The notes under the pieces are model-generated. The model was not told where the DNA came from and made no database searches. It saw only the letters and a program-made list of their open reading frames with translations. The translations under genes were made by a program, and so were the position numbers. DNA of 64,000 nucleotides from Dipteris shenzhenensis (Eukaryota): assembly GCA_047967505.1 (NCBI GenBank), contig CM106538.1; one strand, 5' to 3'. Positions 14,923 to 49,720 of this stretch are shown in pieces. Each line of letters opens with the position of its first letter. The first letter of the stretch is position 1.

Positions 14923-16289
14923 AGGCCTATATGGAAAAAAAAAACCTCTCTAGAAATTGTCGCTATAAAATATTATATCAGTGTCGCTATATAGCGAATA
15001 TAGCGACTTTTAGCAAGCGTCGCTATATAGCGACGCTTTACGGAACCCGCTTTTCATACCGACGATTAACACTAAGCGGGCACTAAACATTGGTACGTAA
15101 ACATCGCAATAGGATCCGTGTGTCATTAGGAAAAAAGGGAGCTCATTTTGGGGCCTTTTACGGTTTGGAAAAATAAGCTCTCAACCAATCAATAGAGGGC
15201 CAACGTAACGTTAAATTCACGAAAATAAGAGAAAATAGAAAAAAGAAACAATACTTTATGTAGGTACAAGCGTGCTACATTAATGTGCAGATTGGCTTTT
15301 TTTCTCACAAGATCTTTGGACAAGAAGATAGAATCTAGTCTGACATTTTATCTGACAAGGGCCTTCCTGCTTCCACCTTCCTTTGAACTTTGAAATGTTG
15401 TGCCGCCTTTCCTTCGAAAGGTCTACCATTCTACACCACTGCCTCATTGTGCAGCAACCTCTTCTTTTCCAAAACTGCTCCCTTGATCCTGTTTGGCGTA
15501 GAGTAAGATGTTTCTTGTCAACTGTCTGTCTGCCCACTTTCTCTTTCTTGAAACTTCAATTTGTTATCTTGTTTACATTACTTTGCTATTGTTACAGATT
15601 CAAAAGGTCTCCATGGTGAATAAAAACCATGGCCATTCTTGTGGAAGATGCTCTGTGCACAACAAGACAAAGCACCCATAGACGCGCATAGACGCATTTC
15701 ATGAACTAAATAAAAAACTTACGGGCGCGTCTATTTGCACATCTATTTTCGCGTCTAGAGACCCGCGTCTAATTGCACGTCTATATATCAGACACACACG
15801 CGTATAGACACGTAGTTAGATGCATAAATAGATGCGCTTATAAACGCGTTTATAGATGCACATATAGATGCAAGTCGAACAGACAGACGCGAATATAAAC
15901 GCGTTTTTAAACGCACTGATAGACGCGCTTTTTTTTTTTTTTTTTTAATTTACAGAATACTGTGTATGTTGTGTATGCTATATAGTTACAAGAATCACAT
16001 ATCCACATTGTGTAATTCAATTCTTACAGCCAACCGCATTTTAATTACAATTCCAAATAAAACATTACAACTCCAAAACGCAATAAAATTGAAAGCTCAA
16101 AAAGTGCTTGTATATACATATAGCACGAAGCTAAGCCACGTCATGTGGCTTCAAGTACAAAAAATAAGGAAGCTAAGCCACGTCATGTGGCTTCAAGTAC
16201 AAAAAATAAGAGGAGTCTATATACAAGAGGCACCAAGCCAAGCCAGTGGCTTTAAGTACAAAAAAGAGTAGCTAGCACTACTTCTACGA

Positions 16290-17698
16290 CTAATCCTCGC
16301 TGCCTTCCACGCTCCCTTCAGCGCTCCCTTCTGCGCCTCCTTCCTCGTCTTCCTCGTCGTCTTGTGCATGGGCCTATAAACAAGGGACAACATATATCAA
16401 TGTATGAAAAATCAAATCTTTACTTATAATTTTGGCATTATTTAATTACTTTCAAATACCTGGGGGGCCGCTCCAGTAGCTCGGGTATACTACTCCTCAG
16501 TAATCAACCCATTATCATAGAAGTGCCTCCATGTATCTCCTCTACGATGGTGGTAGTGGTAGGCTGTCTCCACTGGAGTAGGGTATCTGCCCACGATCTC
16601 AAGCTGCATGACCACGACACACTTTGCAGAGGGATTAGTACAAAGAAACAACCAACCTCCTAATAAACTACATAAGCAATATAATTTGAGATTGATACTT
16701 ATAAATTGGGCCTCCCATGATTCAACACCCCCTGCTCCAAAATGCGTGCTTCCATATTCCTCCATCTGGATCCTCCGTGCCTCCACATGCTGCAGACTGG
16801 GGTCCTCCCTCGCTGACTTCATTGCCTTCTTCCACTCACGCTTGTGAGCAGTGTGGGGCGGGCCCCTTGGTGCTTGACCTGCCTCAAGCTTGGCAAGCTC
16901 CGCTAGTGCATGCCTCTTAAGCGAAAATCTTTTATTGCTAAGTATCGTAACAATCTTTGACTTCCCCCATTTATCTGTGAACTGGTGATTGGGGGGGTTA
17001 GAATACGTAGAGCGAACAGTAGCGAGGGTCTCATCAGCCAACCTCTTTGGGTGGTCTTTGTAGTGGATAAAGCAATCTCTATAATTGTTAGCAATTACAG
17101 AGCGCATGAAGGCCATGATGTCCTTCCCCCGCGCATCCATCAAGATGCCTCCTGTCTGAGTGATGTCATAATAAATCGTACCATCACCCAGAGGCACGTC
17201 TAAATCATCTGAATCATCATCCTCCTCACCGCCACATGGCCCAAAGCACTGTGCCATGCATCCCCCACCGCTCTCCCTGCTACTACGCCTGCTACCCTGT
17301 CATGTCGAGCTCGTACGCTGGCCACTCGTAGCTGGGGACTGCACGGGACTACGCTGACCACTCATAGCTGGAGAACCAAGTCTCGACGACACAGGAGTAC
17401 GTTGTCGGCTCGCCGAGACAGAAGGACCTCCTGACGGCATGGGGGAAGGGGCATAAGACGATACGAGGGAAGGGGCATTAGAAGGGGCATAAGACGGCTA
17501 TGCTGACTCCGTTGAGGTGATCTCAGGCGGTGTGGGGTGGCTTGGAGTCTGTAGTGCCGACTCCTAGGGAGTGTTTAGAGTACCCGTCATATACCTGAAT
17601 AACCCCACAGGACTAAGAGGGTGCCCTAAAAGGTTATATAAGTCCTTCCAAATAGATTCCCGGGGATCAGGTGAGCTAGAAGTGCTTCCTGGCCACAT
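16290..17698 (-). pseudogene. En/Spm accessory ORF (TnpA/ORF2-like, function unassigned), copy 1
   Basis: MWPGS..PDPRESIWKDLYNLLG start, ORF 16490-17257 and short GT-AG introns. Conserved in all three copies. Confidence 0.65.
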
Positions 17699-18580
17699 GT
17701 TGAACTAGAAAAAAGGAAAACAATCTATTACTGATGAGTTGAGAAGAAAGGAGAAGAAAAGAGAGGCTTACTGTCAGAGCACGTCTCTAGATGCCGCGCC
17801 TGATTTACGCGTCTAACAGAGCGTCTAACTACTCGTCTAACAGAGCATCTAACAGAGCGTCAACAGAGCATCTAACAGAGCGTCTAACAGACGCGTCTGT
17901 CTGTGTCTGCAACAAGCCAGACGCGCGGTTAGACGTGCCTGTAGATGCGCTTTTAGACGCACCCTGAGACGCGCCTATAGACGCGCTCCGACAGATAAGA
18001 TTTCTAAAAAGTAGAAAAGGACATTGCGCCCGACACAAAAATGTGACACTAATACCTAGATCATGCGCTTCTTGGATACAAGAAAGTACAAAACTGGAGA
18101 GAGCAAACTTCCAAACAAGATCAACTGCAAAAAGGCTTACTTGGATAGAGGTATGGAAGGTTCTTCTTTCTTTTTCAAAGTTGCTTCTTCTCCTTGTTCG
18201 TCCTCCTCTCCTTTAAGCTTAGAAGTAAGTGTGGGTGCCTTTCTCTTGAGTGTAAGCTTGGAAGTAAATATGGGAGGCTCCCTCTTAAGCTTCGAAACTA
18301 TGGATCTGCTAATAAAGAAGGAAGCAAGCCGCACGAAGTTTAAGTAATGTGAAGAAAAGCAAAGCGAGCGGCGTGCCGAAAAGTAGGTTTAAAAGCAGCG
18401 TCTATAGTCGCATCTAATAGCGCGTCTATAGGCGCGTCTAAATACACAAAGTAGACACGCGTTTAGACATGCCGTTAGACGCGATGTTAGACGCGACTAT
18501 AGACGCGACGATAGATGCAACACAGAGTTTAAATTAAACATTTGAGGAAGAGCAAATTTGGTGGGTTGTTTGTTTGTAGG

Positions 18581-21500
18581 ATGTCTCCATCTTCAATAAG
18601 TAGCTCCAGTGAGGATGAATCCCTCCGTATCCACCATCGCGAAATGTGGTTGGAGCAAAAAATCAAATGTCTGTGTGATCGATGTCGAGGAAACATGTAT
18701 CGTGCATGCAGGATTACACTCAATCATATCTCAAAGTATGGAGAATGGGATGTGATCATAAACAGGGTAAGGGTTTGTAAGTTAAGGTTGATTGAGATAC
18801 CTATGGGTGTTCATATGTTTGAGTTATGATCCTGTTTCAATTTGATACAGGATGCAGTGCCACACCCGCATATGTTACCCTATGCCCGTCGTGAGGAGGC
18901 CAAGCATCGGCGATATGAGGTGGGATCTTTAGGAGGGACCGTTACAGATGCATGGAGTGATGGTGATAGTAGCCCTCCGCCATTACCTCATGAAGCCGTG
19001 GAGGAGGAGGTGTTTGATGATATGGTGTGGGATTTATATGTCCATCAAGGAAGGGATAATAGCATGGAGCAGGATGACCTTTTTACCGCAGCATTGACTC
19101 CACTATTTGAGGGGTGCACATTCTCTATTCTACGTGCCTCCCTTGAGTTACTAAAGTTGCAAACCATCTATGGATGGAGCAATGCAAGTTTGAATGCATT
19201 ACTCAAGTAAGCTTTAAAGTCAATTTTGCAAACATGGTGAATTATGCTAGTGGGTCAATTACTCGAATGCTTTTCCTCATTTATGGTCTTCACGTGCAGG
19301 CTATTGTGTAAAATGCTTCCAAGGGAGAATAAACTACCGACCTCAAGAGATATGGCAAGGCAACATGTGACCTCTCTTGGAGGATTAGATTACAAGCGCA
19401 TCCATGCATGTGTCAACGATTGTGTTTTGTTTCGTGGACTACATAAGGATGCAAGAGAGTATCCTACTTGTGGAGAGGCAAGATATAGAGCAGATGGATG
19501 TGCCTCGTAAGGTATTGGGACATTTTCCCATAATCCCTCGCATCCAACATATGTTCAAGTGCAAATCTATTGCAGAGCTCATGTCATGGCATTCCTCCCA
19601 TTGATCAACCGATGGCAAGTGGAGAACTCCTGCGGACTCTCCTGCGTGGAAGCATATTGAAGACACATGGCCAAGCTTCAAGGAAGAACCTAGGAGCTTG
19701 AGACTTGGATTGGGTATGGACGGTGTGAACCCATTTGGTCTCAAAAGCACGTCTTACAGTGTATGGCCAGTGGTATTGGTGAATTACAATCTTCTGCCCT
19801 CTATGGCTATTAAGAAAGGACATGTCATGCTGTCCCTTCTAATTCCAGGGAAACATAAAGTCAAAAACCCTGATGTTTATTTGGAGCCTTTGATTGATGA
19901 GCTAGAGATACTTTGGAGAGGTATCGAGGTGCATGATGTGAGCAGGCCTCCCTTGTCATGAGACTTCAACTGCAAAGCAGTCTTGATGTGGATGATGCAT
20001 GACTTCCTAGGCTATGGCGAGTGTTCAGGTAAGCATTGCATTTTTTAATTATGAATAGGCAAAGGATGTGGCACCCTAAACCCACCTTCCACTCTTAATT
20101 GCATCTATTGTTCAGGTCTCACTACATTGGGTTACCATGCATGTCCTATTTGTGGTCCTTCGCTAGTTGCCTCACGGGCAGATGCATTGAATAAGGTCAT
20201 CTATGAGAATCACCATCGATTTCTCCCACCTGATCATCCTAGATATGTTGCCCCTTGGAATGAAGTCCTCCCACAATCACTCACCGCGGGAGATTGGATG
20301 AGAATTTGGGACGGTTCCACGACTCCACCACCACTTGGCATGAGCCGGTAAGGGTTTGTAACTATTGGCTGGAAGTAAAGATTGGCTATATTGGCTGAAA
20401 GTAAAGATTGCATGCTAACACTTTATTTTGTTTAGATACTCCATCTTTTATCGTCTACCATATTGGTCCCACCTCAAGATCAATCACCTGCTTGATCCCA
20501 TGCATATCTTCAAGAATGTGGCATCTACCATTTGGGAGCATTTGAATGGGACACGAGATTCGGCAGGCATAAGGGAGGATCTACATACCACAGGGAGGAT
20601 GCATGAAGCTTGGCCTCAAGAGAGACCAAATGGGTGTGTTTTTTTACCTCGTGCACCGTGGATGTTATCAAAGCTAGAGATGGCGATGGTGAAGCGCGCT
20701 ATTACTACAATTCGTACTCCCACTGGATGCATGAGGTGTTTGAAGGGAGCCTTTACAAAGAGCAAGAAAAGAGGTGTAGAGCAATTATATGGCTTGAAAT
20801 CTCATGATTGGCACAAGATGCTCCAAGTAAGTATTTTATATGCATAATATCTTTTTCCTTTCAAATTTGTGTGTGAATAGCTATAAGCAACTAATCAACC
20901 ACCTCCTCGCGGGTTCAGTTCATACTACCTACTAGCATTTCACGTAGTGCATCGAAGGACGTGAAAGATTGTATTTACAAGATGGGCGAGCTTGTGAGGT
21001 ATGTGAGCTCAAAGGAAATAGATCCCACCACGCTTGAGAATTCTCGAGTTATGTCAGTGGAGGCGGTTTGTTTAGTGGAGGAGACATTTCCACGTTCTAT
21101 TCTCACAAGCCAACTACATCTCATAGTGCATTTGGTGGATGAGATTGCTATATGCGGTACTATACATGCACGATGGTTGTTCTTCTTGGAGCGCTTCATG
21201 AAAACCTTGAAGGTCTTCGTGAGACAAAATGCAAGACCCGAAGGTAGCATGGCCGAGGGTTGGTTGGTACAAGAGTCACTTGTATATATTTCTGAGTTTC
21301 TTGTTGATGTGGATAGCTCTCTCCCACGACTATGGAGAGATGATGAAGACCTAAGGATGACCTCCATTGTGCCTCAAGGAAAAGGACACAACAAAGTAAT
21401 AGACACGGAGTTGCATAATAGTATCAACCTCTTTTGCGTGCTTAATAGTGATGTGATGAAAAGATGGGTGACAAGATACGAGGATGCAAAGGCAAGAAGA

Positions 21501-22546
21501 CAAGAAGAAAGGGCCCTCTTTCATACACACCACGGATCTCTGTGCCATACCCTCAACATCTAAGAGCACTTCCAAAGGATATTCATGTGTATTGGCTACT
21601 TAATGAAATGGAGAAAGCAGAGAAAGATGAGGGGATGCATATCACAATGGAAGAATGGGAGTATGCTAGGGGATGCATGAGCAAGGTCGGTATATAGAAT
21701 GTTATGCATAAGTTAGGAGCTTTTTATAATTTAGATTGCTTATTTAATTGATTTTTTCTTGGTGTAGTGCACTATGTTCAATGCTATATGGTGTGAGGGC
21801 AAGCATTTTCAAACACAATGGATTGATGATAAGAGAAACACACAAGATTGCGGCGTCATTGCTAGCTTTGAGGGAGCCAATGGAGCCATGGATGATTATT
21901 GTGGCATAATCCAAGATATTATTATGCTTGACTTTCGACGCTTCTTTGTGTATGTTTTGGATGTAAAGTGGTTTAAGGACATGGTGGAAAGAGGCCCTAA
22001 TGCAACAATCAAACGCCATGCAAGTGGCTTTGTAACTATTGACTCCACAAAGTTTTGGCAAAGTAGGAAGGACACACTAGTACTACTGCAACAATGTGAA
22101 CAGGTACTGTGCACACATATAAAAATACTCGCTTTTAAATATTTGATGCAAGAAAAGTAACATGATTGTATTTGTGTTTGAATTAGGTTGTCTATCAACC
22201 AATGGTGGATAATAATAAATGGTGGCATGTCATACCTATTATGCCACGTTCCAGAGTGATGTATAGTACATTTACTAATATGGAGCGTATGGAGGATGAT
22301 CATGGCCATGGACGTGATGATGACCATGATACAAGAGAGGAGGATGATCATGAGATAGGAGATATAGATATTGAGGCCATTACCCATGAGGACAAGCCTA
22401 CCATTCGAGATGCTGATTTCAATGAGCACATGAGTGGCACAAGTAGTAGTGGGTTGAATGTATTTGTAGATCTAAACACTTGTTTGGATTTTGAAGTAGA
22501 TAGTTTGGCAAGGGTTGATCTCATTGAGGATGAGATTGAACCGTAG
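18581..22546 (+). pseudogene. tnp2: En/Spm Tnp2/TnpD transposase, multi-exon, disrupted
   Basis: KCLCDRC..NHISKYG; IHACVNDCVLF; RLGLGMDGVNPFG..SVWPVVLVNYNL; LDPMHIFKNV; GLKSHDWH; HLIVHLVDEIAICG..ERFMKTLK..RPEGSMAEG; YCGIIQDI..VKWF. Frameshift at about 19495 and stops at about 19602 and 19959. Confidence 0.93.
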
Positions 22547-24482
22547 CCCCATAATTGATATTGGCAAAACTATTTTACATATTGTCTCATTCTCCTCATC
22601 TCACTTAATTCTTGTATATGTGGGCTCACAAAAAATTATGTGCTTTGGTAATCATGGGCAATGTTTGGAAAGCAATGATGTACACCAAAATCTCACTTTC
22701 TGTATTCTCTGGTTTGCGTCTATTTACACATCTAAATGCGCGTTTGATTCTCAGTGTAAACGTGCAAATAAACGTGCAAATACATGCGCAAATAGATGCG
22801 CTAATAAACGGGATGTTAGATGGGCCCGTATTTTCTCAGGTTAGACGAGCACGTAGACGCGGTAATTTACACGCAAATAGACGAGCTTTTAGACGCGCAT
22901 TTAGACGCATCCGTAATTTCTCTACTAAAGCAATGCCTATAGACGCGCCCGCTATTTTGCGCATCTACCATGCACGTCTATAGATGCTTTGTGTTGTTGT
23001 GGTGGATGATAATGCTATGAAGGCAGAATTATACCACACATCCTTACCTCGTCGACCTGCTTCTTCTATTTCTTCGGTAGAGAATTCCAGTACAGTCAAA
23101 ACGGAAGGAACTTGGGAAAGGTTTAGTGTTTTGAGAGGAGCATGGGTGCTCATGCAACCTAGCAAAAGAAAAAGACCCCAGACAAAAAACATTTTCTTGG
23201 CATCATGGAAGGGAAGAGTACGAGATTTTAAAATCACCAGAGGGAAGATATCGATGAAAGAAGTTTTGATTCAACATGTGTACATGCATAAAGAACTTGT
23301 CTTACAAGACTATCCAAATGATCTTCCGCAACACAGGCCTAATTGTATATTTTTCTATTGTGGTTTTTTTCTTTACGAGGTGTATGGATTTTTAAGATGA
23401 AGCTTTCTTTCTTTGCTTATTGACATTCTTGTGTTATTTTATTTCAGATTTATACCCTTCATCGTATGAGACATGGCAAAACATCGATTGTATTCTGGGA
23501 TTTATAGATGTTCTGCATGGATCGATAGGAGAACAACAATACCAAGGTCGATGTGCAACAGAGCTAGCTCAATCAGGTATACTTTTTACTGATCATTTTT
23601 ATCAGTTGCTGGACAATGCTAACACACATGGTGTGTTAAGGAAACAAGACCTTCGAGCATGGAATTCAATGGATTAGCCTCATCCACATTCTAGTGTTAC
23701 AGAGACATATAGGGCCAAGCTTTTCAAAGAAGTACAAAAAGCTCTGAGGCCCAATATTGCCACAAGGATAATAAAAATTTCTTTATGCATGCCTCTCACA
23801 GTTTTTGTGGACTTGTTTAATACCTTTCTAGTGAAGGTTTCAAAAACAATGTTCATAGTTAAAGCAACAAGTTCGGCATGCATGCCACAATTTCTGGATA
23901 AAGGTTGGGATAAGAAGACATGTAGTTCAGTGTTTTGTGAGGTTGTCCAACCTTCTATGCAATTGAAGTACATGGTTGCTCATAAAATTTTATTTTTTCT
24001 TTTTATTATAAGCGCAGTCGAATGCTAGGCACAAAACTAGTCCAAATGGATCAAGATGAAGATTCTTTTGGTGCACAAAATAAACTTCTTGATATTGATG
24101 TTGTTGAGAATGGTGATGTGCTAGTCAATATCTCATTAAGAGAATGTTGCTCCCTAGCTCAATTGTGCAATGACATTCTGTTTGAGACAGAAGGTTCTAT
24201 TTCAAACGACTTTTTATTTATCTACAACAATAAAAAGGTACACCATCTGATTTATCCTAGTCTCATTAAGCACTGCTATTAGTTTACTTTACCCTATTGA
24301 TTCATATTGCTTTTTTGCAGGTGCTCAAAAGAAGAGAGAGCTCAATAAAATGCAAAGGCATTGAAAATTTGAAAATTGAGATAACACAGACTCCATAAAC
24401 AAAGGTTTTGTATTCAATCAAGTAAAATTTTGTACAGAAGTGTTTAGTTGTACATGTAGAACATATTCCTGACATCCATTTT

Positions 24483-26633
24483 CTATTTATGTACGGCTTG
24501 ATCTAGAGGCTACTCTACATGGTCCAAGCTCTCCCTATCATCATTTTTCGGAGAATCTATTTTATGCTGCTCCATCCTGTCCTGTACAGTATGTTGGTGC
24601 TGCTCCATTGTCTCCTCTACTGCCCCAGGAGCATCTGTTTGCTGCTGCTCCACCATCTTCTCCTCAACAACATCAGTAGCAGGTCCTTGCTCCTATGGCT
24701 TCTCCTCATCAGCACTAGGTCCTTGTTCCTATGGCACCACATTAGCTTCATCTGTGGCATCAAGGTGTATGAGACCTTCTTGTACTTTAGAGCTCTCACG
24801 CAACTCGACAGTAGCTGGTACAATAAGTTTGGGGGAGGCATAGCTCAAAAACTTCCAAATTATATGAGCTCGGAAATTATATACATAGTTTGAGCTGAAG
24901 CTATCTTCTTTCATCTGCAATGGCATATGATGATTTAGAACACTTTGTATCACTATCAATTATCTTCAAGCTAAATGATAATAATTTTTTCTTACAAGGT
25001 CTAGCTGTTGTTTCTCAAAATAGCTTGAAAGTAGATATTTGGCACTGATCAGCACTCTCCATCCACAGCTACTTGAATCATCTTGTTGTGGTGTCTAAAC
25101 AGTTGGAAAGATATGTTAGAAACTGTTAACATCTGAACAAAATAAAATTATTCAATAAGTTCAAAGGCATAGCATGAAATAGACATCAGTAGAGGGACTG
25201 ACTTTTTACCTCTAGATTTATTGGCTCTATTGAATCCAAAAGAGAGACATTAGGAGGACAGTGATCCAATGCATCTAGAAGCCTTCTAATACAATTGCAA
25301 TACATATAATTTAGTTAGTATGATATCAAAATAATCAAGTTTTAAGTTCAAAAAGCACACACATTACTTACAATTTTAGCTCTCTATGTGTGTTTTTAAG
25401 AGAGTTGAATATAAAGCATTGCTTCTGCTAGATGTCAATAGAAACAAAACTCCAGTGGTCACTGCATAAGGAAAAAAGCATTAGGAAATCAAAGGCTACA
25501 AGAGTTCTCAATCGTAAAGAAGAATCTTAAAAGAAGCAGTCACCCACATACCTGTTATGTTATGGAAGTAGCAAAACATCGATAACTTCAAAATTGCAGT
25601 GTCTGAACCAGTTGGAAATACCGATGGGAGTTTCCCTTGCATCTCTTAACTTAGAAGAAATGGTAGGATCAATAATATGGACTGTATGCTGTACAGAGGG
25701 GTGAAGCCAGCTTCTCATCATGCTGCATAGGACCAAAAAATAATTAGGGTAGGGTATAAAGGAGGTATAAGGAGGATTGTTTTGCAAAAAATGTAAAATA
25801 ATAGACACTTACTAGAGCATTGCAAGAATGATAGTATCTGAGCAATACTCATTCTTATGAGCCAATGCTACCAAGCATGGTTTTGTCAAGTCAAAATCAT
25901 TCACTGAAAATTCATCCTCAATATGGACAACTATATTAGGGCCCAGCTCCTGCAACCTTCTATGTATCTGCAGCTCCCTCTTTCCAGTCTCCACATCTAT
26001 AACAGATTTTGTTTCTTTTATTTGCTGCTTCAGTGACTCCTCATAAGCAGCCTTCCCTCTGGTGTTCTTTGAGTGGGTTACTTCAACAACCTTAACCTCA
26101 TCTACCTTCAACTTCCTTGTAGGTGGAATTAATAATATGTCTCTCATCTTTATGTCCTACCATTCCACAGGATGAACAAGCTTGTCATACCTCCATCTCA
26201 CTCTGGACAAAGTGTTGAATTCTTTGGTCATCAAAGTCACCCTGTGAGCATGGGCTGCTACCAGCATTGCATCTTCAAAATATTTTTCGAAGTAATCCTC
26301 TGCCATTTCCTGTAAGGAAAGAATGGCAGTCTTGTTCCATCTGAGCCCAAGGTGCCAACAATCACATATTTCTTTCACCAGTCTTTAAAAAGGTGCCTTG
26401 GGGATTGCAAAGCCTATAGCTTTCTGTTGCTTCCTGATCTCCCTTAGCACACCTGCACCATGATTCAATCTCTTGGCCTTTTGCTTGAGTAGGCTCATTG
26501 GCTTACCCTTCCTGCCATGTGCAGCTCTTCCCTTTGGAGGCACACTAAATTTCTTGGTACCTGCCCTAGCTGTTGTTGCTACAAGCCCTGGCCCTTTGCC
26601 AGCTTTCCTTGCAGTTGACTTGGTTCTTGCCAT
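24483..26633 (-). pseudogene. Divergent histone H3 fused to a Ulp1/SENP-like (C48) protease domain (cargo)
   Basis: MARTKSTARK..LREIRKQQK..IPKAPF*RLVKEI..LRWNKTAILSLQEMAEDY..FEDA..AHAHRVTLM, then the same frame continues past TAG 26157. Five GT-AG introns (25812-25723, 25551-25462, 25371-25286, 25209-25095, 24995-24915) keep the frame and give SDTII, LLP*HNSDHWSFVSID, FNSL and TPQQDDSSSCG (Cys at 25065-67). Confidence 0.8.
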
Positions 26634-26740
26634 CACTCTGACAAACTGCATACAAAGCAATGGAAAGAGATTACAGCCATGGAGAACATGGTATGACACA
26701 AAAAGGCAATCACAGGGGTGGATGAAGCAACATTGAAAAT

Positions 26741-28156
26741 TTTGCAATAAAACGCGATATGAGGAGTTTGAAATTCCTAGTAGGTCCAAATCGCGTTTTC
26801 CTGCAAATACCTGAAGTGACATGCTGGTGCATTCCTACAGTGATTTCTCTGTCTTTACAACTCAATACAATATGAATGGATTTTATGCAAGAAAAGTAGA
26901 GCCATGGAGAACTATGGAAGTCACAAAACCAGAATGATAGGGGTGGATGAAGCAACATTTCAATATTTGCAACAAAATGCGATTTCGGCTGTTTGAAATT
27001 CCTAAGGCCTTCTCCTCGCGTTTTCCTGCAAATTCATGAGGCAGCATGCTGGAATATGCCTTCAGTCATTTGAAGGTGTTTGCATGTCCATGCAGGATGG
27101 ATTGAGTGTATGGAAGGCAAGAAGTGTGCACAGACTGAAGGAAGAACCCATAAGTACAGTTTTACCCTCACATGCAATTATCACACTTGAAGATCTGCAT
27201 TCCTACAATGATTTCTCTGTCTTTCCAACTAAATAAAATATGGATTGAGTCTATGCATTTCCATGCGGGATGGATTGTTTCTATGGTAGGCAAGAAGATC
27301 GTAAAGACTGAGGGAAGAACCCATTAATACTGACCTGAAATCTATCTGTGGGTATGCTGTGCTGCTGATGAGTACCCTGTGCTAGGGATGAACCTGTGCT
27401 ACTGGTCAGGATGCTGATGTTGCAGAGTATGGAGGTAGGGAGGCAAGAGAGCTGAGACTGGAGGGCAAGAGGGCTGAGATAGGATACCACAAATAAGTGC
27501 AAAATACAAATAAGGCAGCTACTAAATCCCACATGTATGGAATGTAGTCGTTTTTCACACGTGTAGATGGGACCCAGATCTCTTGGAGTTTGAAACTTGG
27601 CACATGTGAACAGTACACTTTATGCCTTGGAACTTGTGCCATTCATGATTTCATAATCAATTCAACAATCACTCTTCCCTCCCCTGCCTCCCAATCTTTC
27701 ATCCTTGCCAGGACCCTCGCATCTTCCTTTTCCTTCTCTCTCTGATCCTTTCCTACCCAGCACACTCCATCCAGACTACAACCTACCTGAAGACTACTAC
27801 CACTACCAGATCTCCAGGTTACCTAGAGTGCAGAGTTAAAGCTAGTGAAAGAGCAGGAGATTCACCAGTGCAACTCCAACAACATGGAAAAGGAAAGAAA
27901 AGGTCAGAATTCTAGATTGTTTTCAATGTTTTTTGACATATATTTCTTCCATCCATTGAATTTTTGATGTTCAAATGTCTTCACTCAGCTCCACCCTTCT
28001 TGTTACATATTCAATTGATACTGTCCAAGAATGTGGTAAATCACCCAGGAATTTGATTGGAGATGGATATGAATAGAACCTAGAAATTTGCAACAAAATG
28101 CGAGGAGAGTGCTTTATACATTTCTAGGTAGCCCATATCGCATTTTGCTGCAAATT
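26741..28156. repeat. Three copies of an inverted-repeat motif TTTGCAnnAAAAyGCGA-(31-34 nt)-TCGCrTTTTnnTGCAAA
   Basis: Copies at 26741-26807, 26965-27033 and 28085-28156. Confidence 0.8.
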
Positions 28157-28391
28157 CCTGTTGTTGACACATTCCTCATGAAAAGCTTCACTCAGCTCTA
28201 GCCTTTCTCTTGCATATCAACTCATACTGTCTAGGAATCAATGAGATGAACCTAGTGTTTGATTTGACATGCATATCAACAGAACTAGAGCAGCAACTAT
28301 GCAGTGCCCATGCTTCCAGGTGTCTTGATTGGTGGAAAGGATTATGTTTTCCTCCATGATATAGAGTGTATGTTTAATTTGAGGGAGGACT

Positions 28392-29090
28392 ATGCCATTT
28401 CCCTTATTGCCCAGGCTTGCCCAGGCTTCAAGGCTTGACAAGGAGGTTGGCATAGAGGATGACCATTCACTATTGGCTTTGGAAACAATTTTTGATCCTG
28501 CAGAGGCCCTTACTTTTTGTTTCAAAGAGGCTGAAAAGTTCCAAGAGCCAGATGAAGCTACCTTCCAGCTCACACAGGAAGCTATGAATCTCTCAGCACT
28601 ATACACAGAAAAGCTTAAAGAAGAGGCTAGACTGGAGGGGAGAGGAATAAATCTTTGGAAAGATGAACTGCTTGTTGCTGATGAAAATGAGAAGGTACTT
28701 CAAATCAAATACTTTGTCTTCTACTTAAATGTTTTGTAGGTTGTGTATTGTCTCACTCCAATCTTTTGATATGTGGCAGCTACAAATTGAGGATGACACA
28801 TTCCTCCAGAGATCAAGTGGAAGCAGGCCGGTTGGGTTTTGCAAACTGTCAAGCCTAGCTCATTATATTCATGATCTAGGCAGTGCTAAGATCTTGATTT
28901 ACCATAGGCAGTTGAGCAACAATGGAGAACCCATTGTTTACTTCTTAAAATGTTTGTCCAAGGTTTTAGGTGGACATGATCTTTCATGGCAAAAGGAAAA
29001 GATCATTTTGATAGAGAGGTTGTCTGCCATAGATATATTTGGAGATTATGTGAATAAGCAGGCCTCTAGGGCTGCTTACTTTTTGTCTTA
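28392..29090 (+). pseudogene. Unknown protein (cargo ORF X), apparently 3'-truncated
   Basis: ORF 28392-28695 splices via GTACTT..GGCAG into the frame of ORF 28729. It runs head-on into the truncated transposase at about 29090. Confidence 0.4.
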
Positions 29091-29122
29091 CAAATCAAGT
29101 ACAAAACAAAAAATGATCATAC

Positions 29123-30283
29123 CTGGAACCGAGCCTAACCACCATATGTGTTTCTCTGACTGCACACTAAAATACTTCGAACTCACTTCAGTCAATGATG
29201 TATCAATTGCTCCATTCATCAATGTAATAGTAACTCTTTCCATTTTCTTTTCCTTTACAACCTCACACTCATCCAGTTTGATAACAAATTTCAAAATTCC
29301 TTTGCACTCCTCAAATGTTATTCCATAAAACTTGACCATTCTTCTTTGAAGTTGTTGTAGATCTACAAATATATTGTTCCAAGGATTATACATAGTGGGT
29401 CCTTTACCACCATGAAATATTTCTTCAATATGGATATATTGCCCAATAAATTCATCTATACTTTCATTCAAATGACCTCTTATCCTCCACACGATTGCTG
29501 GATTTGGCAGTAAAACTTGTTTAATCCTTTGATCTTTCAAAGTTGAGGATATCACATGGAAAATCAAACTATATCCCTTCCTGCTAACTCCACTAACATC
29601 AAGAGCCTCTTGGATTGTAGTGCCATCAACTTGATTATTGGATACAAAGTCCTGATTTGCGGTAAGGGACGAAATAGATATAGTCATTTGAGAACCTTTT
29701 TGAGTATACAAAATGATAAATTTCAATCTAACCTTGCTTCTTGAATTCGTCGCTTGCATCCACCAGTCCCAGCCTTCAAATTTGTAATGTTTTTAATCTT
29801 CCTACTATGTAGTCTGTCTCCAAGCACGGTTCTCTTCTTTCTTGCTCTTGTCAACTCTTTTTTACTCTTTGAATGCTCCTCAATTTCATTCTACAACTGC
29901 TGCTCCAATTTTGCATGAATGGCTATCTCCTGCATCTTGTCCCCCTTTTCTTGTAGATACATCATTTTATACGTTTCCGCAAATGCAGACTAAGCTGAAA
30001 TATAACCAAGAAGTCCATTTTGTCCATCGCCGACAAACCTCAGTAGTGTGGTGGGATTGACAAATGGAGGTGTAGAGTTTTTTACTTGACATTTTGGATA
30101 TATGCTTCCATCGCACCATAAGTCAATATGTTGAAGCCCTTCTCTTCTCATATTTTCCCGCTATTGAGCATTCAGCACCGTATCCTTTCGTCTTTTTTGT
30201 GCTGGAGCATATTGTTCGTCTAAGTCGATGTGAAGATGGTGTAATCGCTTCTTCTGAGATAGTGACTCACCAGTATCGGCCAT
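29123..30283 (-). pseudogene. N-terminal half of a putative DDE transposase (RAG1/Transib/P-like or Spy-like; superfamily unresolved)
   Basis: MADTGES start, a coiled-coil-like stretch, basic RKIKNITNLKAGTGGCKRRIQEAR, then LKFVIKLDECEV (candidate first catalytic Asp 29271-73), MERVTITLMN and FSVQSEKHIWWLG. Three TAG stops, a frameshift at about 29720 and a splice donor at 29122. Reads inward from the right TIR. Confidence 0.55.
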
Positions 30284-32000
30284 TTTTTGTGCTTCTGAGG
30301 TTGCAAAGTTTGCTTGTCAATCTCATAGTCATTTTGTAACATGAATCGTGGAAGTGTGGCAGTATCCATGTGAATATTTTGAAAACTTGCAATCACCAAG
30401 TTCAATGATGGATTCTTTATGAAAGGCCTGCACACGTCGGCAAAAGAGATGTGGAATCTTTGGTGAACAAAAAAAAATCTAAGGAGATATTTAATGCAAA
30501 ATTGTGTTAGTTAGACAAAAGATTATCTTATTCCTTTCTGAATTGATAGTTCTATAGTCCTTACTGACAGTTCTGAGCCACATTTTTGTATTTTACTATT
30601 TTGGAGGTCTTTTAGGAGAGAAATAAATCAAAAAATAGTGAATTTCTTATAGGGCCCCAAAATGAGCTCCCTGTTTCCCTAATGAGTAGTGAAAGATGAG
30701 CGAAGAGCAAATGGAGAAATTCAATAAGTTTTGTATCCTCAATAGGAAGGAGATGTAGAAGTGGATTGAGAGATATGAAGCAGTCAAAGCAAAAAGAATA
30801 GTTACAAGGAAGAGATTCAGAATCATTTACAGGTGATCGCAACCATATCCACGGGATCTCGCCCTTCTCCCCACTCACATGTCACTTGATTGGCTACAAC
30901 TGGCTCTATGTAAAGCTGAACACAATGGAGAGACAATAAACGAGCGCGAGTGAGAGTTATCATCTGGATGTATGATGCATGTAAGTTTCTTACCTATTGA
31001 CGTAATTAAGTAATTATTTGTGGCAATATACACTATAAAATAGACGCATCTTCATTGTTTTAATGATGCTCTTTTGCAGTACAAAAAGTACACTGCATTA
31101 TGGTTGTATGGACAACATTTTTCCGTGGAACGCATCGATTCAAAGAGAGTCACATATGATTGGGAGTCATGGCTAACTTCACACAAGATAGTCGAGCAAG
31201 TGCTTTGGATACTAATCTTCTCTCCTCGCAGTTGGATTATTATGGGACCATACGTGAAATCTATGAAATTGATTTCAAACGATTTAGTTTTTTCATTCTT
31301 GATGTAAAATGGTTTAGAACTATTTACACAAGTCCCCATGCGACAGTGAGAAAAGATAGTGGCGGTTTCTTTGTAATAGACTCCACCAAACTTTGGACCG
31401 ATGAAAGTCATACTTTTGTTCTTCTTGAGCATTGTGAGCAGGTGCATAATAATGATTTAATTAATTGAAGCTTTCGTTTTTAAAGATCCATTGATACATG
31501 TACTTAAGCATAATTTCATATACATAATTGATGGCATTTGGCACCCATCTTCAATATAGGTGGTTTTTCATCCGGATCGTTCTGATCCCAGATGGTGGTA
31601 CGTGATCCAAGTTTCACCACGAAGTAAGCAAATTTTTGAAGATAGAGATGTGGATATGGAGATGCCATTACCAATGTCGGATCCAATTGACCCCGATGGT
31701 GTTGAGATATCAAGCTCTACCCCCGATATATCTCCTGGATGACTATCATTTATGTCACCGCCTATGTTAGTTGTACTCGTGGTGTAGTTAGACTACCACG
31801 TATGTTTTTGGTTTGGGTTCACATATGAACCACATATTCTAGGTTTTGACATATAGGGTATTTCCCTCTTCTATTGTATTATTGTTGTTGTGTGCAAAAG
31901 TGAAGAAAGGCTTCACCCTCCAACCTTGTGTCCTCTCTCTTTTGTGTGTTGTGAAGAAAGCTGAACTTGAGTCTCCTATCTCTCTCCCTTATTCTTTACA

Positions 32001-32013
32001 TGGTATCAGAGCC
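32001..32013 (+). promoter_or_regulatory. Primer binding site, tRNA-iMet type
   Basis: TGGTATCAGAGCC directly after the 5' LTR. Confidence 0.93.
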
Positions 32014-32577
32014 TTGTTCGTGGTAAGGAGCTCAAGAAAGCAAGCCAAGTTTGTGGTGTCCTGGTAAGAGGACCAGTGTTGCTTTCCTATTTCGAGTTTG
32101 GGAGCAAATCTCTGCAGGTAGCACAGCCAGAAGTGCAGGAGTGCACTGCTTCAGATTGAGAGGCCCTTCGCGGTGTGGCGAGAGCGCAGTATATGCCGCG
32201 GGCGAATGCGAAGCCCTCGGTGACTTTATTTTTTTGATTTGAGGCCGTTTCGAGGCCCGTTTTGAAGGCGGAAGTTCTTCGCAGGCACTCAGAAAAAGGC
32301 CCTGTTTTTGCTGTGCGACCACTGCGCGGCTAGTCGGTGGAAAGGTGCCACAGAAATTGCATCGTATGCCTGTGTGCAGAGATATTGGGAGTTGCAGATT
32401 CATGCCTGTTTCCTGTTGATGCAAAATCGTCACTAGGAAGTGACTGTGTGGTGAAATACCACTTTCGTCAGTGTTGCAGATCTGCCCCTGTGAGGCTTTT
32501 TGCAGAAGTTTTGCTATTTGCCCTTCTGAGGCATTTGCTGTGTTTACAGGTTGCTGTTGCAATTTGTGATTTGTAAA

Positions 32578-35500
32578 ATGTCTGAGAATCTGTCTACCAT
32601 TGTCAGTGAGAAGCTTGACAAGAACAACTTCCAAGCATGGAAGTTCAGGATGACAAACTTCCTCATGGGAAAGGGAGTTTGGGAGTACATCAGTGGTGAA
32701 ACTGCAGAACCAGTTTTGGGTACTGCTCCCACTCCTGCTGAATTGAAGGCCTTTAAAGAATGGCATGAAAAAGCCAGAAAATGCTTGTATTGGCTGTCTG
32801 TTAGCATTTCAGATTCTATGATTGTGCACATACAGGATGTAGAGACACCTAAGGAGGCATGGGATACATTGGTGAAGCTATATAGCACAAATACCAAAGC
32901 ACGAAAGATGCAGCTAAAGCAGGAGTTGCACAATGTGCAAAGGAAAAATATGAATATAAATGAGTATTCCTTGAAGGTGAAAGGCCTTGCAGATTCTCTT
33001 GCCTCCATTGGAGCACCTGTTGATGATGAGGACTTAGTGTCCGTGACCTTGAATGGTCTTGGGAAAGATTATGCACAGTTTCGGACATCCATTGGAGTCC
33101 GTGAAACATTTCCTGATTTTCAGGAACTTATTGCTCTCTTGCTGAGTGAAGAGCAAAGGAATGGTGGTTCAGCCACCTCAACTTCTCAAGAGACTGCTTT
33201 CTACTCGAATACAGGTAGAGGCAGGGGTAGAGGAAGAGGCCGTTTTGGTGGCCGTGCAGGAAATCAGAACCAATAGCAACAACAGGAAAACCAGTCCTAT
33301 GGAGGAGGACGTGGTAGTTCTAGAGGCAGGGGGAGCCAAAGAGGCCGTGGTTCATGGCAAAGGAACCAGCAAGTAAATAGCAGCACAGAATGCTATTATT
33401 GTGTGGAAAGCCTGGACACAAGGAGAATACATGCTATAAAAAGCAGAATGACATCAAAAGTGGGAAGTTGCAGCAAAGCAACTATGCATCATCAAGTGGG
33501 CATGGTGACGACAGAAATGAGCACCTTTTTGTGATGCAGCATATGGTTAACTCCATGTCAGGAGATGCTGCAGCTTGCAATGATGTTTGGTATGTTGATT
33601 CAGGTGCCTCTAATCACATGACCAGTCATGGTGAGTGGTTTCATGATGTTAGAAATTTGGATAAGCCAAGTTATGTTGAAACAGGTGATGATACTGCGCA
33701 CCCAATTACGCAAGTTGGTAAAGTGCCATTGGCTATGCAGGATGGCAAAACAAAGTACTTGGCAGATGTACTTCATGTTCCAAAAATCACTAAGAACTTG
33801 GTTTCAGTTGGCCAGATGGTTGAGCAAGGTCTGCAGGTTAGATTTAATCCTGATGGATGCTTTGTTGAGGACTTGAAAAATAAGTCCGCTTGGTTGCGAA
33901 AGGCAACAAAAATGGCAGAATGTTCACCTTGGATGTTGATATGCCTGAGGTGAAAGCTGCTATGTTTGCGCATGGGAGAGGTGTCATTGCAGATATTGAG
34001 ATATGGCACAAGCGCATTGGGCATGTGAATATACAAAGGCTGAAATATATGCAAACGAAAAACATTGTTGCAGGTTTGCCTAAATTCAGAGTTGAGGGAA
34101 TGCAAAAGGTATGTGAAGCATGCCAAATGGGTAAGCAGGACAGACATGCATTTCCCAAAAATGCTAAGGTAAGCAGAAGACCTTTGGAAGTGATCCATTC
34201 AGATGTTTGGACAACCAAAGCTGCTTCTATTGGTGGATGCCATTATTATGTGACGTTTATTGATGACTACACAAGGAAGGTGTGGATTTATTTTATGAAG
34301 CACAAAAGTGAAGTGTTCAGCCATTTCAAGGCTTTTAAGGCCATGGTTGAAAAAGAGAAAGGGTTGCATATTAAAGTGCTAAGATCTGATGGAGGGGGAG
34401 AGTACTTTTCAGAAGAATTTTGTGAATATCTGAAAGAACAGGGAATTCAAAGGAAGTACTCATGCAGGTCTACCCCTCAGCAGAATGGGGTTGCAGAAAG
34501 GAAGAACAGGCATATTGCAGAAGTAGGACGGGCGATCCTAAATGAGAAAAACATGCCTGATTATTTTTGGGCTGAAGCAGTAGCAACTGCTGTTTATATT
34601 ATGAACAGAACTCCCACTGCAGCTGTCCATGGCATGATGCCTGAAGAAATGTATACAGGCCAAAAACCAAATATTTCTCACTTGAAGGTATTTGGTTGCA
34701 TAGCGTATGTTCATGTTCCTGATGAGAAGAGAACCAAGCTGGATCCAAAGGCAGAAAAATGCATCTTTATTGGATATGCTCAGCACCAGAAAGGGTATCG
34801 CTGTTATAACCCTTCCACTCGCAAAATGCAAGTGAGCAGAGATGTTGTTTTTGATGAAATGAGCAGCTGGTATGCACCAACTATTATGGTAGGAGATGCA
34901 GATGCAGGAAATGGGAATGCTGCAATAAATGTAGAGCAGCAATCGCAAGCCTTGAGTGGACCCAGAGAGTCCTCTACTAGTGGATCTAATGCATGGACAG
35001 GGAGATTGAGATCTAGTGAATCGTCACATGGCAGTCCTGATAGTGTTGTGCAGGTATCACATAAGGGAAAAGAAAAAGTGGACCATACTCCAGTGTTTGA
35101 TGTGTCTGCTGGTAGCTCTCATGTTGATGGAGAGTCAAGCGGCTCTGAAATGAGCCTTGATGAGGAACTTGGGATTCCGTCTGTTGTTACACTTGGTGCA
35201 AGGAAAAGCAGGCATGATTTAAAGACTCGTGCAACTGATCCAGTTGTACGGAGGTCCACTCGTATTAAGTATCCAGTTGACAGGCTGAGATATGATGGGT
35301 ATACAGCACATCACTATGCTTATATGGTCAAGGTTCTAGAGAAGCCAGAGCCCACATGTTTTGAGGATGCAGCAGGGCATAAAAATTGGGAAGCAGCTAT
35401 GGATGAAGAGATGGCTGCCTTGGATGCAAACCACACTTGGGATTTGATGCCTTTGCCTCATGATAAGAAGGCTATTGGCTGCAAGTGGGTTTACAAAGTA

Positions 35501-48146: not shown

Positions 48147-48181
<35 letters not shown>

Positions 48182-49679: not shown

Positions 49680-49720
<41 letters not shown>

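What the first reader, a model, noticed from the sequence alone, without database searches (positions are those of the whole stretch)
26157..26633. H3 variant keeps K4/K9, lacks the K27 motif and has CenH3-like fold substitutions
Seen: the tail ARTKSTARKA keeps K4 and K9 but has S10A; the canonical AARKS is replaced by TTARAG; the tail is longer than canonical. The fold has W at F84 (LRW), A at T107 (EDA) and RVTLM, which are CenH3-like. Loop 1 has canonical length (EICDCWHLGLRW vs EIAQDFKTDLRF). Known: H3K9me2 and H3K27 methylation are the plant silencing marks. Inference: it could be a K9 decoy, a K27-refractory variant or a CenH3-derived capture.
Basis: partly seen in the sequence, partly recalled or inferred. 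Interest (0 to 1): 0.7.

Follow-up and report, generated by a model that had tools for sequence, protein, structure and literature searches.

The report
Dead transposon-borne histone H3–protease fusion gene
The "H3 variant" is the front part of a broken copy of a gene, carried by a very abundant plant DNA transposon, that joins a histone H3 look-alike to a SUMO-protease-like domain, an architecture that seems undescribed and may be a transposon's tool for acting on chromatin.

Summary
(1) There is an in-frame TAA at codon 83. (2) The closing TAG sits where 8 of 8 close relatives have Gln. (3) The frame continues into a 6-exon, 480-codon gene (26633→24729) whose C-terminal half is a Ulp1/C48-like protease domain.

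The window copy has four internal stops and is dead. It lies inside an ~8.2 kb element bounded by 32-nt terminal inverted repeats. That element also holds a truncated large candidate transposase gene and is highly repeated in two DNA runs.

The H3-fold plus Ulp1 fusion is a conserved family:
- 38 of the 150 listed profile hits belong to it.
- Named members are hypothetical proteins of two Adiantum ferns.
- The family forms one clade (100/100) apart from canonical H3.

W at F84 is family-wide (29/29). K9 is not conserved (12/23). Loop 1 has canonical length and Gln68 is mostly kept, so the CenH3 criteria tested are not met. The decoy and anti-silencing roles are inference. I found no published description in 7 literature searches.

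The parts
26157..26633 (-).
   Evidence: Pfam Histone E 8.4e-25; alignment to PDB H3 chains
26385..26387 (-). In-frame TAA at codon 83, at the position of H3 Gln68
   Evidence: Close copies have Gln in 6 of 7 and Glu in 1
26157..26159 (-). In-frame TAG at codon 159.
   Evidence: All 8 close copies that cover it have Gln and continue
25813..26633 (-). Exon 1: H3-like domain, conserved extension (RWRYDKL.HP, KMRDILLIPP, EVTH..TR), helical linker and the start of the Ulp1-like domain. The donor is GTAAGT
25552..25722 (-). Exon 2 of the Ulp1-like part, with an in-frame TAA at codon 328 (25560-25562)
25372..25461 (-). Exon 3: the His-Trp catalytic motif (DHW) and FNSL, where C48 proteases have the Asp. 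It carries an in-frame TAG at codon 342 (25428-25430)
25210..25285 (-). Exon 4
24996..25094 (-). Exon 5: the PQQ....SCGW motif (oxyanion Gln and catalytic Cys)
   Evidence: tblastn with P0048, P0026 and P0047
24729..24914 (-). Exon 6 and the terminal TAG
   Evidence: P0047 aligns across it
29130..30241 (-). Remnant of the element's large gene, a candidate transposase. It matches residues 3-458 of the 898-aa P0183, carries stops, and its C-terminal half is missing
   Evidence: P0061 of Adiantum nelumboides joins the same segment to an H3-like part
15125..15156 (+). Left terminal inverted repeat of element E
30653..30684 (-). Right terminal inverted repeat of element E (30 of 32 bases complementary to the left one)
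   Evidence: RNA-read loose ends at 30684/30685 have low agreement (0.53-0.63), and contig depth drops beyond 30742
15658..23001 (+). CACTA-type transposon nested inside element E, with the 3-bp target duplication GTG (15655-15657 and 23002-23004)
   Evidence: Loose ends at 23002 match window 15626-15655. Pfam DUF4218 hit
26660..27330 (.). Tandem repeats of about 225 bp directly upstream of the H3-like start codon, containing short palindromes

Best explanation
The feature is the 5' third of a pseudogenised copy of a transposon-borne gene. Intact relatives encode a fusion of about 400-500 aa with these parts:
- an H3 look-alike, with the ARTK N-terminus and a complete histone fold;
- a conserved extension and a long helix;
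- a Ulp1/SENP-type (peptidase C48) cysteine-protease-like domain.

The gene rides, together with a large candidate transposase gene on the same strand, in an ~8.2 kb element with terminal inverted repeats. That element is very highly repeated in the DNA runs laid.

The window copy cannot work. It has four internal stop codons, the element's transposase gene is truncated, and a CACTA element has inserted into the element.

For intact family members the most likely mode of action is inferred, not shown. The H3-like module would take the protein to chromatin, either by pairing with H4 and H3-H4 chaperones or by offering an H3 N-terminus to tail-binding proteins. The protease domain would then remove SUMO-like modifiers there, to the transposon's benefit. 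This parallels the VANC-Ulp1 (KIU) fusions of VANDAL Mutator-like elements. I put about 0.85 on the identity (a dead copy of a TE-borne H3-fold plus Ulp1 fusion) and about 0.3 on the chromatin-targeted de-SUMOylation and anti-silencing role.
For: Histone fold: Pfam E 8.4e-25.

The six-exon model has five GT-AG introns of 81-115 nt, no frameshift and 480 codons, with stops at codons 83, 159, 328 and 342. It aligns end to end with P0048 (residues 1-403, E 1e-56) and with P0026.

Protease domain: P0048 of Adiantum nelumboides scores Histone 2.6e-23 and Peptidase_C48 at 25.6 bits against a cut-off of 20.7. P0026 of A. capillus-veneris gives a weak C48 hit (E 0.013). The His (HW), Gln and Cys (CGW) motifs are present in the window exons.

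Family:
- 38 of the 150 listed rows of the profile search match beyond the histone fold.
- The 29 family folds form one clade at 100/100.
- Residues outside the fold are invariant among 14 sequences of 34-52% identity.

Transposon context:
- The TIR core occurs exactly twice in the window, against 0.01 expected, at 15125-15156 and 30653-30684.
- Summed contig depth is 2-4.7e5 over most of 23000-30742 (lower, 0.4-1e5, at 26738-28339), against about 100 beyond. About 10,000-11,000 contig pieces were laid per DNA run.
- Flanks beyond 30684 are heterogeneous, whereas reads continue uniformly across the CACTA insertion site.
- The candidate transposase remnant lies upstream on the same strand. Its relatives form clusters of 25 and 29 near-identical members, including at least six 898-aa copies.
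- The same neighbourhood is seen in A. nelumboides P0061.

Precedent: Ulp1 domains captured by plant MULEs and fused to the anti-silencing VANC protein (review PMC13317346, passages read).
Against: - No target-site duplication flanks the element; a paralogous junction at 11357-11369 looks like an exact empty site.
- The large upstream protein has no Pfam hit and no PDB sequence hit, and its structure model is unusable (pLDDT 32.7). 'Transposase' therefore rests on an ESM-Atlas lead to RAG1-type domains and on DDE-like motifs that I recognise only from memory.
- The Asp of the C48 triad is Asn in both sequences that contain that exon (the window and P0048), so the domain might be inactive.
- The C48 core of the AlphaFold model is low confidence (pLDDT below 50 for residues 278-356), and Foldseek found only H3 matches.
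- The contig depths are sums over contigs and are not a copy number (caveat).
- No splice junction of this gene was seen in the RNA reads. Depth over exon 1 was only 0.2-2.5, and the reads were mostly 90-99% alike, so they come from other copies.
- Nothing here tests H4 pairing, chromatin binding or protease activity.
Confidence: 0.8

Rival explanations
1. It is a host histone H3 variant gene, either a lineage-specific variant or a CENH3 paralogue, that sits by accident among transposons and has decayed. The Ulp1-like exons would belong to a neighbouring gene.
For: The histone fold is genuine and the H3-type N-terminus is kept. Some substitutions (W at F84, RVTLM, AEDY) resemble what I recall of plant CENH3; that is recall, not a call.
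Against: The frame continues without shift into the conserved extension. The H3-like and C48 parts lie in single annotated proteins of two ferns. The locus is inside a TIR-bounded, highly repeated element. Several deep subfamilies coexist in one species, Adiantum nelumboides (P0048, P0047 and P0030 in different clades).
Confidence: 0.05
2. The H3-like module was captured from the host's centromeric histone (CenH3) and keeps centromere-directed properties. The fusion would then target the transposon or its protease to centromeres.
For: W at the F84 position occurs in 29 of 29 folds. The C-terminal end of the fold is extended rather than ending as in H3. Two CENP-A chains appear among the Foldseek rows, at ranks 24 and 27, with 44% identity over 75 columns.
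Against: Loop 1 is not lengthened in 22 of 29 folds, including the window. Gln68 is kept in 19 of 28. The first nine tail residues align with H3. The best 60 of 176 PDB sequence matches are H3.1, H3.2 or H3.3, or H3/CENP-A chimeras, not CENP-A. No plant CENH3 sequence was on hand, so the decisive tree was not built.
Confidence: 0.1
3. The protein is a soluble H3-tail decoy, for example for H3K9 methyltransferases. It would titrate or misdirect silencing enzymes, and the histone fold and protease would be secondary.
For: ARTK is strongly conserved: R2 in 23 of 23, K4 in 23 of 23, T3 in 20 of 23 and R8 in 22 of 23 tails.
Against: K9 is kept in only 12 of 23 tails and S10 in 3 of 23. The ARKS-type K27 context is missing in nearly all of the 23 tails (one clear ARK[T] in P0007). 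The whole histone fold, including the positions of H113 and D123, is conserved, which a mere tail decoy would not need.
Confidence: 0.15

Closest known systems
KIU (Kaonashi) genes of VANDAL / non-TIR Mutator-like elements: the VANC anti-silencing protein fused to a captured Ulp1 domain
   Same: It is a plant DNA-transposon accessory gene, separate from the transposase, in which a Ulp1/C48 domain is fused to a chromatin- or DNA-directed module and conserved over long times. A benefit to the element through escape from silencing has been proposed (review PMC13317346, passages read).
   Different: The partner module here is an H3-type histone, not VANC. The carrier is a TIR element whose large protein has no MULE Pfam domain. 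The named members are ferns, not seed plants. That review mentions 'histone' 0 times.
Canonical histone H3 (H3.1 / H3.3)
   Same: It has the ARTK N-terminus, a histone fold of the same length (87 residues between the landmarks used, in 22 of 29 folds), Gln68 in most members, and the RVT and H113/D123-equivalent positions.
   Different: It shows about 40% identity only and has a long family branch (0.56). W replaces F84, P replaces R63 (IPK in place of IRK), and the tail carries an insertion before helix αN. In place of the C-terminal ERA there are about 340 further residues with a protease-like domain.
CenH3 / CENP-A
   Same: It is a divergent H3 with an altered tail, an aromatic residue (W) after loop 1, and a C-terminal extension beyond the fold.
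   Different: Loop 1 is not lengthened, Gln68 is mostly retained, the family is TE-borne and multicopy, and it is fused to C48. Membership is not supported.
H3-tail plus clan-CE protease gene in an animal IS3EU transposon
   Same: An H3 N-terminal sequence is joined to a Ulp1-like cysteine-protease domain and carried as cargo by a DNA transposon.
   Different: Those notes describe only the tail, not a histone fold, in an invertebrate and in another transposon superfamily. No sequence similarity to my proteins was found by the scan's sequence look-up. They are unchecked AI notes.
hAT-mediated amplification of a histone H3-like gene in Pyrenophora (Mob DNA 2019, PMC6710886; search listing and abstract start only)
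   Same: A histone H3-like gene is multiplied by a DNA transposon.
   Different: That case is a fungal housekeeping gene amplified as cargo. No protease fusion is mentioned in what I saw.

Membership tests
Histone H3 family (Pfam PF00125, H3 type) | Histone-fold domain scoring above the Pfam gathering threshold | tested here: met
   87.8 bits against a cut-off of 26.4, E 8.4e-25, read with X at the TAA. Relatives score 58-102 bits.
Histone H3 family (Pfam PF00125, H3 type) | H3-type N-terminus (ARTK...) and helix/loop spacing as in H3 | tested here: met
   R2 and K4 are kept in 23 of 23 tails; 22 of 29 folds have the same length as the stored canonical H3 (P0076, P0081).
Histone H3 family (Pfam PF00125, H3 type) | Intact reading frame able to make a histone | tested here: not met
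   The window copy has TAA at codon 83 and three further internal stops.
CenH3 / CENP-A | Loop 1 longer than in H3 (criterion recalled from the literature) | tested here: not met
   the window and 21 other folds have canonical length, 6 have +1 residue and 1 has +8.
CenH3 / CENP-A | Loss of the conserved Gln68 of helix α1 (criterion recalled from the literature) | tested here: not met
   Gln is present in 19 of 28 family members. The window's TAA is a mutated Gln codon position.
CenH3 / CENP-A | Groups with the host lineage's CENH3 in a histone-fold tree | not tested
The tree holds only canonical H3 and four unnamed variants.
CenH3 / CENP-A | Centromeric localisation | not testable with these tools
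   This needs tagged protein or ChIP.
Ulp1/SENP cysteine proteases (Pfam PF02902, peptidase C48) | C48 domain above the Pfam gathering threshold | tested here: met
   Met for the family: P0048 scores 25.6 bits against 20.7. P0026 is below threshold at 15.8 bits. The window's separate exons give no hit on their own but are collinear with P0048.
Ulp1/SENP cysteine proteases (Pfam PF02902, peptidase C48) | Catalytic His, Asp and Cys plus the oxyanion Gln | tested here: inconclusive
   His (HW), Gln (PQQ/PKQ) and Cys (CGW) are present. At the Asp position both sequences that hold this exon have Asn (window FNSL, P0048 ANSG). That Asn can serve in some clan-CE enzymes is recalled only.
Ulp1/SENP cysteine proteases (Pfam PF02902, peptidase C48) | C48 fold in a structure model | tested here: inconclusive
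   the core (residues 278-356) has pLDDT below 50; no protease match.
TIR (cut-and-paste) DNA transposon | Terminal inverted repeats at both ends | tested here: met
   32-nt TIRs with 30 of 32 bases matching. The core occurs 2 times in the window against 0.01 expected.
TIR (cut-and-paste) DNA transposon | Target-site duplication | tested here: not met
   The flanks are gtgtgt|E|agtagtg, and a paralogous uninterrupted junction gtgtgt|agtagtg lies at 11357-11369. No duplication is present.
TIR (cut-and-paste) DNA transposon | Many copies with differing flanks | tested here: met
   about 10,000-11,000 contig pieces per DNA run. Summed depth is 2-4.7e5 inside against about 100 outside. Loose ends beyond 30684 agree at only 0.53-0.63.
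TIR (cut-and-paste) DNA transposon | Recognisable transposase | tested here: inconclusive
   The large upstream protein family has no Pfam or PDB sequence match, and the AlphaFold model is unusable. The ESM Atlas's nearest named clusters carry RAG1_RNase_H, ZnC2 and ZnH2 at scores of 0.94-0.95, which is only a lead.
KIU / VANC-Ulp1 of VANDAL MULEs | VANC domain and a Mutator-like carrier | tested here: not met
   No MULE or VANC-type Pfam hit was found in the gene or in ORFs of 23000-30700. Only the principle is shared, namely a TE accessory gene with a fused Ulp1 domain.

The most novel reading that the evidence does not exclude
DNA transposons of distant hosts (ferns here, and an invertebrate in earlier notes of this scan) have repeatedly built 'histone H3 plus Ulp1-like protease' genes. 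In the plant family the whole H3 fold is kept, so the protein could be loaded into nucleosomes or H3-H4 chaperone complexes. That would make it a transposon-encoded histone that carries its own de-SUMOylase into chromatin to undo silencing. Its carrier may be a plant element with a RAG1/Transib-like transposase, a superfamily that, as far as I recall, is not established in land plants.
Probability: 0.2. Interest if true: 0.85.

Novelty: new variant of a known kind. Interest (0 to 1): 0.6.

Why it matters
Transposons are known to carry captured host domains. In plants, Ulp1 domains are fused to the anti-silencing factor VANC. A transposon-borne histone H3 fold fused to such a protease, conserved across deep subfamilies and present in very high copy number, would be a new way for a mobile element to reach chromatin.

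It also gives concrete proteins to test, namely the intact Adiantum members and other unnamed ones. The tests are whether a histone look-alike can deliver an enzyme into nucleosomes, or act as a bait for H3-tail readers.

For annotation, it warns that 'H3 variants' in large plant genomes can be fragments of transposon genes. This copy itself is only a dead relic.

Tried and rejected
- Own genome: none is held, so copies could not be counted or a consensus made directly.
- Sequencing runs: the best holder has only 0.13 of the sampled words and no RNA holder is listed.
- RNA raw reads: 205 and 390 reads were laid, mostly 90-99% alike. No splice junction of the H3-Ulp1 gene reached the listing threshold. 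Expression of this copy, or splicing of the family, is therefore neither shown nor excluded. The stop-codon positions were not among the 40 of 516 differences shown.
- Neighbouring CACTA as carrier: rejected. The CACTA ends at 23001 with its own GTG duplication and is nested in the element.
- LTR retrotransposon reading of the 3.5-kb direct repeats (11363-14909 and 30685-39775, 95% identity): rejected. Depth in the repeat is about 100 against 2-4.7e5 inside, and the repeats are units of a tandem array.
- Pfam on 44 ORFs around the gene: no significant hit.
- ESM Atlas on the 234-aa upstream ORF: no usable hit.
- PDB profile search with the candidate transposase: only coiled-coil noise.
- Pfam at E ≤ 10 on four of its relatives: nothing relevant.
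- AlphaFold of P0183: pLDDT 32.7, so no fold search was run on it.
- Foldseek of the P0048 model: only H3 and CENP-A chains at E 4.5e-3 or weaker, and nothing for the protease part.
- Earlier-findings look-ups by place and by sequence: nothing.
- Literature: 7 searches found no description of an H3-fold plus Ulp1 fusion or of a transposon-encoded H3 in plants. One search call was rejected for a term that was too long and was re-sent.
Full report
**The observation.** Translating 26633→26157 gives the quoted residues. These are an H3-type start (MARTKSTARKA…), TTARAG where H3 has its K27 context, a loop-1 region of canonical length ending in LRW, then FEDA and RVTLM.
- It is a genuine histone fold: Pfam PF00125 scores E 8.4e-25, 87.8 bits, against a cut-off of 26.4.
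- PDB H3.1, H3.2 and H3.3 chains match at about 1e-19.
In the PDB alignments it sits opposite Gln68 of H3.

**The ORF is only part of a gene.**
- All 8 close copies that cover that point read …VEW-Q-D(F/I)KMRDILLIPP… and go on.
- The window's next minus-strand ORF (25812-26147) continues the same text.
- Translating 26633→25812 in one frame gives 273 codons with two stops, TAA at codon 83 and TAG at codon 159, and no frameshift.
- Six of the 7 close copies covering codon 83 have Gln and one has Glu. Both stops are therefore copy-specific, and Gln→stop changes (C→T) are the simplest reading.
- Full-length relatives of 245-284 aa all end at the same point (…DT(I/V)…), just where the window has a perfect GTAAGT donor.

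**The C-terminal half is a Ulp1-like protease.** The 'longer' search found a 511-aa hypothetical protein of the fern Adiantum capillus-veneris (P0026). Cluster look-ups named further members in Adiantum nelumboides (P0048, P0047, P0030, P0061, P0169 and P0170).
- P0048 (403 aa) scores Histone at 2.6e-23 and Peptidase_C48 (Ulp1) at 25.6 bits, above the 20.7 cut-off. P0026 gives a weak C48 hit (E 0.013).
- tblastn of these proteins on the window lays the Ulp1-like part on short exons downstream.
- By hand and by script I derived a model of six exons: 26633-25813, 25722-25552, 25461-25372, 25285-25210, 25094-24996 and 24914-24729.
- The model has five GT-AG introns of 81-115 nt and 480 codons. 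It aligns with P0048 over residues 1-403 (E 1e-56) and with P0026 (E 1e-61).
- The exons contain the His-Trp motif, PQQ…SCGW (oxyanion Gln and catalytic Cys) and, at the position of the catalytic Asp, Asn (FNSL). P0048 also has Asn there (ANSG).
- The model carries four internal stops, at codons 83, 159, 328 and 342. The window copy is a pseudogene of a spliced gene, not a retrocopy.

**A conserved family.** A profile of 14 members, searched against 1.84 billion representatives, listed 150 rows.
- Thirty-eight of those rows match beyond the histone fold and so belong to the family. The others are canonical H3 at about 143 bits, or tandem H3 predictions.
- In a 14-sequence alignment with 34-52% identity, invariant columns include residues outside the fold (D148, L155, P158 and R161 in P0007 numbering).
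- Among 23 complete N-termini, R2 and K4 are kept in 23, T3 in 20 and R8 in 22. K9 is kept in only 12 (R in 6, V in 3, W in 1, I in 1) and S10 in 3. An ARK(S/T) K27-type context is essentially absent.
- Among 29 folds, 22 have the same length as canonical H3, 6 have +1 residue and 1 has +8.
- W at the F84 position occurs in 29 of 29 folds. Gln68 is kept in 19 of 28. The T107 position varies.
- In an IQ-TREE analysis, the 29 folds form one clade (100/100) against five canonical and four unnamed variant H3s. Several deep subfamilies appear, and A. nelumboides has members in three of them.
- W84 is therefore a family trait, not decay of this copy. A at T107 is only a subfamily trait.
- An AlphaFold model of P0048 with the 48-row alignment has mean pLDDT 65.6. 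The histone fold is confident (76-91), a long helix at 176-223 scores about 90, and the C48 core is poor (below 50 for residues 278-356).
- Foldseek returns only nucleosomal H3 chains (E from 4.5e-3). CENP-A chains appear at ranks 24 and 27.

**The transposon.** Upstream on the same strand, window 30241→29130 matches residues 3-458 of an 898-aa protein (P0183; E 1e-28 and 1e-13, with stops). The C-terminal half is absent from the window.
- This protein family forms clusters of 25 and 29 near-identical members, including at least six 898-aa copies.
- It has no Pfam or PDB sequence match.
- The ESM Atlas places it nearest to clusters carrying RAG1_RNase_H, ZnC2 and ZnH2, and to DUF1280 (scores 0.94-0.95). 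That is a lead only, and its AlphaFold model failed (pLDDT 32.7).
- An A. nelumboides gene model (P0061) joins a homologous segment of this protein to the H3-like part. The two genes are therefore also neighbours in that fern.
- The element's ends are 32-nt inverted repeats at 15125-15156 and 30653-30684, with 30 of 32 bases matching. Their 20-nt core occurs exactly twice in the window, against 0.01 expected.
- A CACTA element (15658-23001, GTG duplication, tnp2/DUF4218 ORFs) is nested inside. Without it the element measures about 8.2 kb.

Laying two DNA runs (contigs) and two RNA runs (raw reads) of the same coded organism on 23000-31000 gave the following:
- About 10,000-11,000 contig pieces were laid per DNA run.
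- Summed depth was 2-4.7e5 over most of the interior (0.4-1e5 at 26738-28339), against about 100 beyond 30742.
- Loose ends at 30684/30685 had low agreement, meaning different flanks in different copies.
- Loose ends at 23002 reproduce window 15626-15655, meaning other copies lack the CACTA.

The depth figures are sums, not copy numbers, but the element is clearly highly repeated. No target-site duplication is present, and a paralogous junction at 11357-11369 looks like an exact empty site. I leave this unexplained.

**How it most likely works.** Two things are shown: the gene architecture and its transposon context. The rest is inferred.
- In intact members, the conserved free ARTK N-terminus, the complete fold and the retained H113/D123-equivalent positions suggest that the module is still handled like H3. 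It could pair with H4 or with chaperones, or be bound by readers of the unmodified H3 N-terminus.
- The fused C48 domain would then act on SUMO-like conjugates at chromatin.
- The nearest precedent is the KIU genes of VANDAL elements. In these a captured Ulp1 domain is fused to VANC, a protein that removes silencing from its own element family. The role of the Ulp1 part there is still unknown (review PMC13317346, passages read).
- The Asn at the Asp position leaves activity open.
- I rate this functional reading at about 0.3.
- A pure K9-decoy reading is weakened by the poor conservation of K9.
- A CenH3 origin fails the two criteria I could test, but it is not excluded because no plant CENH3 was available for the tree.

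**What is known, and novelty.** Seven full-text searches found no description of an H3-fold plus Ulp1 fusion or of a plant transposon-encoded H3.
- The 2026 review of gene capture by plant transposons discusses Ulp1 capture but contains the word 'histone' 0 times.
- A fungal case of hAT-amplified H3-like genes exists (PMC6710886; listing and abstract start only).
- Earlier notes of this scan describe an H3-tail plus clan-CE protease gene in an invertebrate IS3EU transposon (unchecked AI notes, not tested here). If they hold, the combination has arisen more than once.
- The Adiantum proteins are in public databases only as hypothetical proteins.
- I class the finding as a new variant of a known kind: a transposon accessory gene with a captured Ulp1 domain, here with a histone as partner.

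**Verdict.** The residues are right, but the stops, the continuation of the frame and the fusion were missed. The window copy itself is a dead relic, and the interest lies in the family it reveals.

Noticed in passing
window 29130-30241 (-); proteins P0182, P0183: The element's large protein family (663-898 aa) has an N-terminal coiled coil and DDE-like motifs. It has no Pfam or PDB sequence match. The ESM Atlas puts it nearest to RAG1_RNase_H/ZnC2/ZnH2 and DUF1280 clusters (scores 0.94-0.95). A RAG1/Transib-like transposase in a plant element would be notable, but the AlphaFold model was unusable and the element shows no 5-bp duplication.
   Followed up: partly
window 15125/30684 junctions and 11357-11369: The ~8.2 kb TIR element has no target-site duplication. 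A paralogous unit of the surrounding 3.7-kb tandem array shows the uninterrupted junction exactly, as for a duplication-free insertion.
   Followed up: partly
window 15658-23001 (+) and 49717-56481 (-): Two CACTA-type copies lie in inverted orientation (87-95% alike). They carry Transposase_21 (E 8e-47) and DUF4218 (E 2e-25) ORFs, have termini CACAACAAG…/…GTTGTTGTG, and show a GTG duplication at the first copy.
   Followed up: partly
window 31699-37192: A young Copia element has 302-bp LTRs that are 99.3% identical and an open 1016-codon pol frame (RVT_2 1e-76, rve, gag_pre-integrs). It is inserted in the second unit of the tandem array. Older related Copia pieces lie at 912-6228.
   Followed up: partly
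window 45586-48311 (+): A GC-rich host gene (0.52-0.55) has an SBP (SQUAMOSA-promoter-binding) domain (E 9e-19) and a Gln/His-rich second exon. It appears to be the only ordinary gene seen in the window.
   Followed up: partly
window 26660-27330: Tandem repeats of about 225 bp with short palindromes (TTTGCAA.AAAA.GCGA type) lie directly upstream of the H3-like start codon. Contig depth is several-fold lower here (0.4-1e5) than in the rest of the element, so this stretch varies between copies.
   Followed up: no
window 23267-24868: The highest RNA-read depth on the element (up to 17 per bin) falls in the part downstream of the H3-Ulp1 gene, which has no recognisable ORF. An 11-nt deletion variant at 24344 was seen in 9 of 17 reads of one RNA run.
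   Followed up: no
window 6800-10350 and 59100-59600: There are long purine-rich (GA/GAA-type) low-complexity arrays with 160-420-bp higher-order periodicity.
   Followed up: no
protein P0169 (Adiantum nelumboides, 817 aa): This annotated protein joins the H3-Ulp1 gene to a retrotransposon aspartyl-protease segment (Asp_protease_2, E 2e-6). It is probably a chimeric gene model across nested elements.
   Followed up: no
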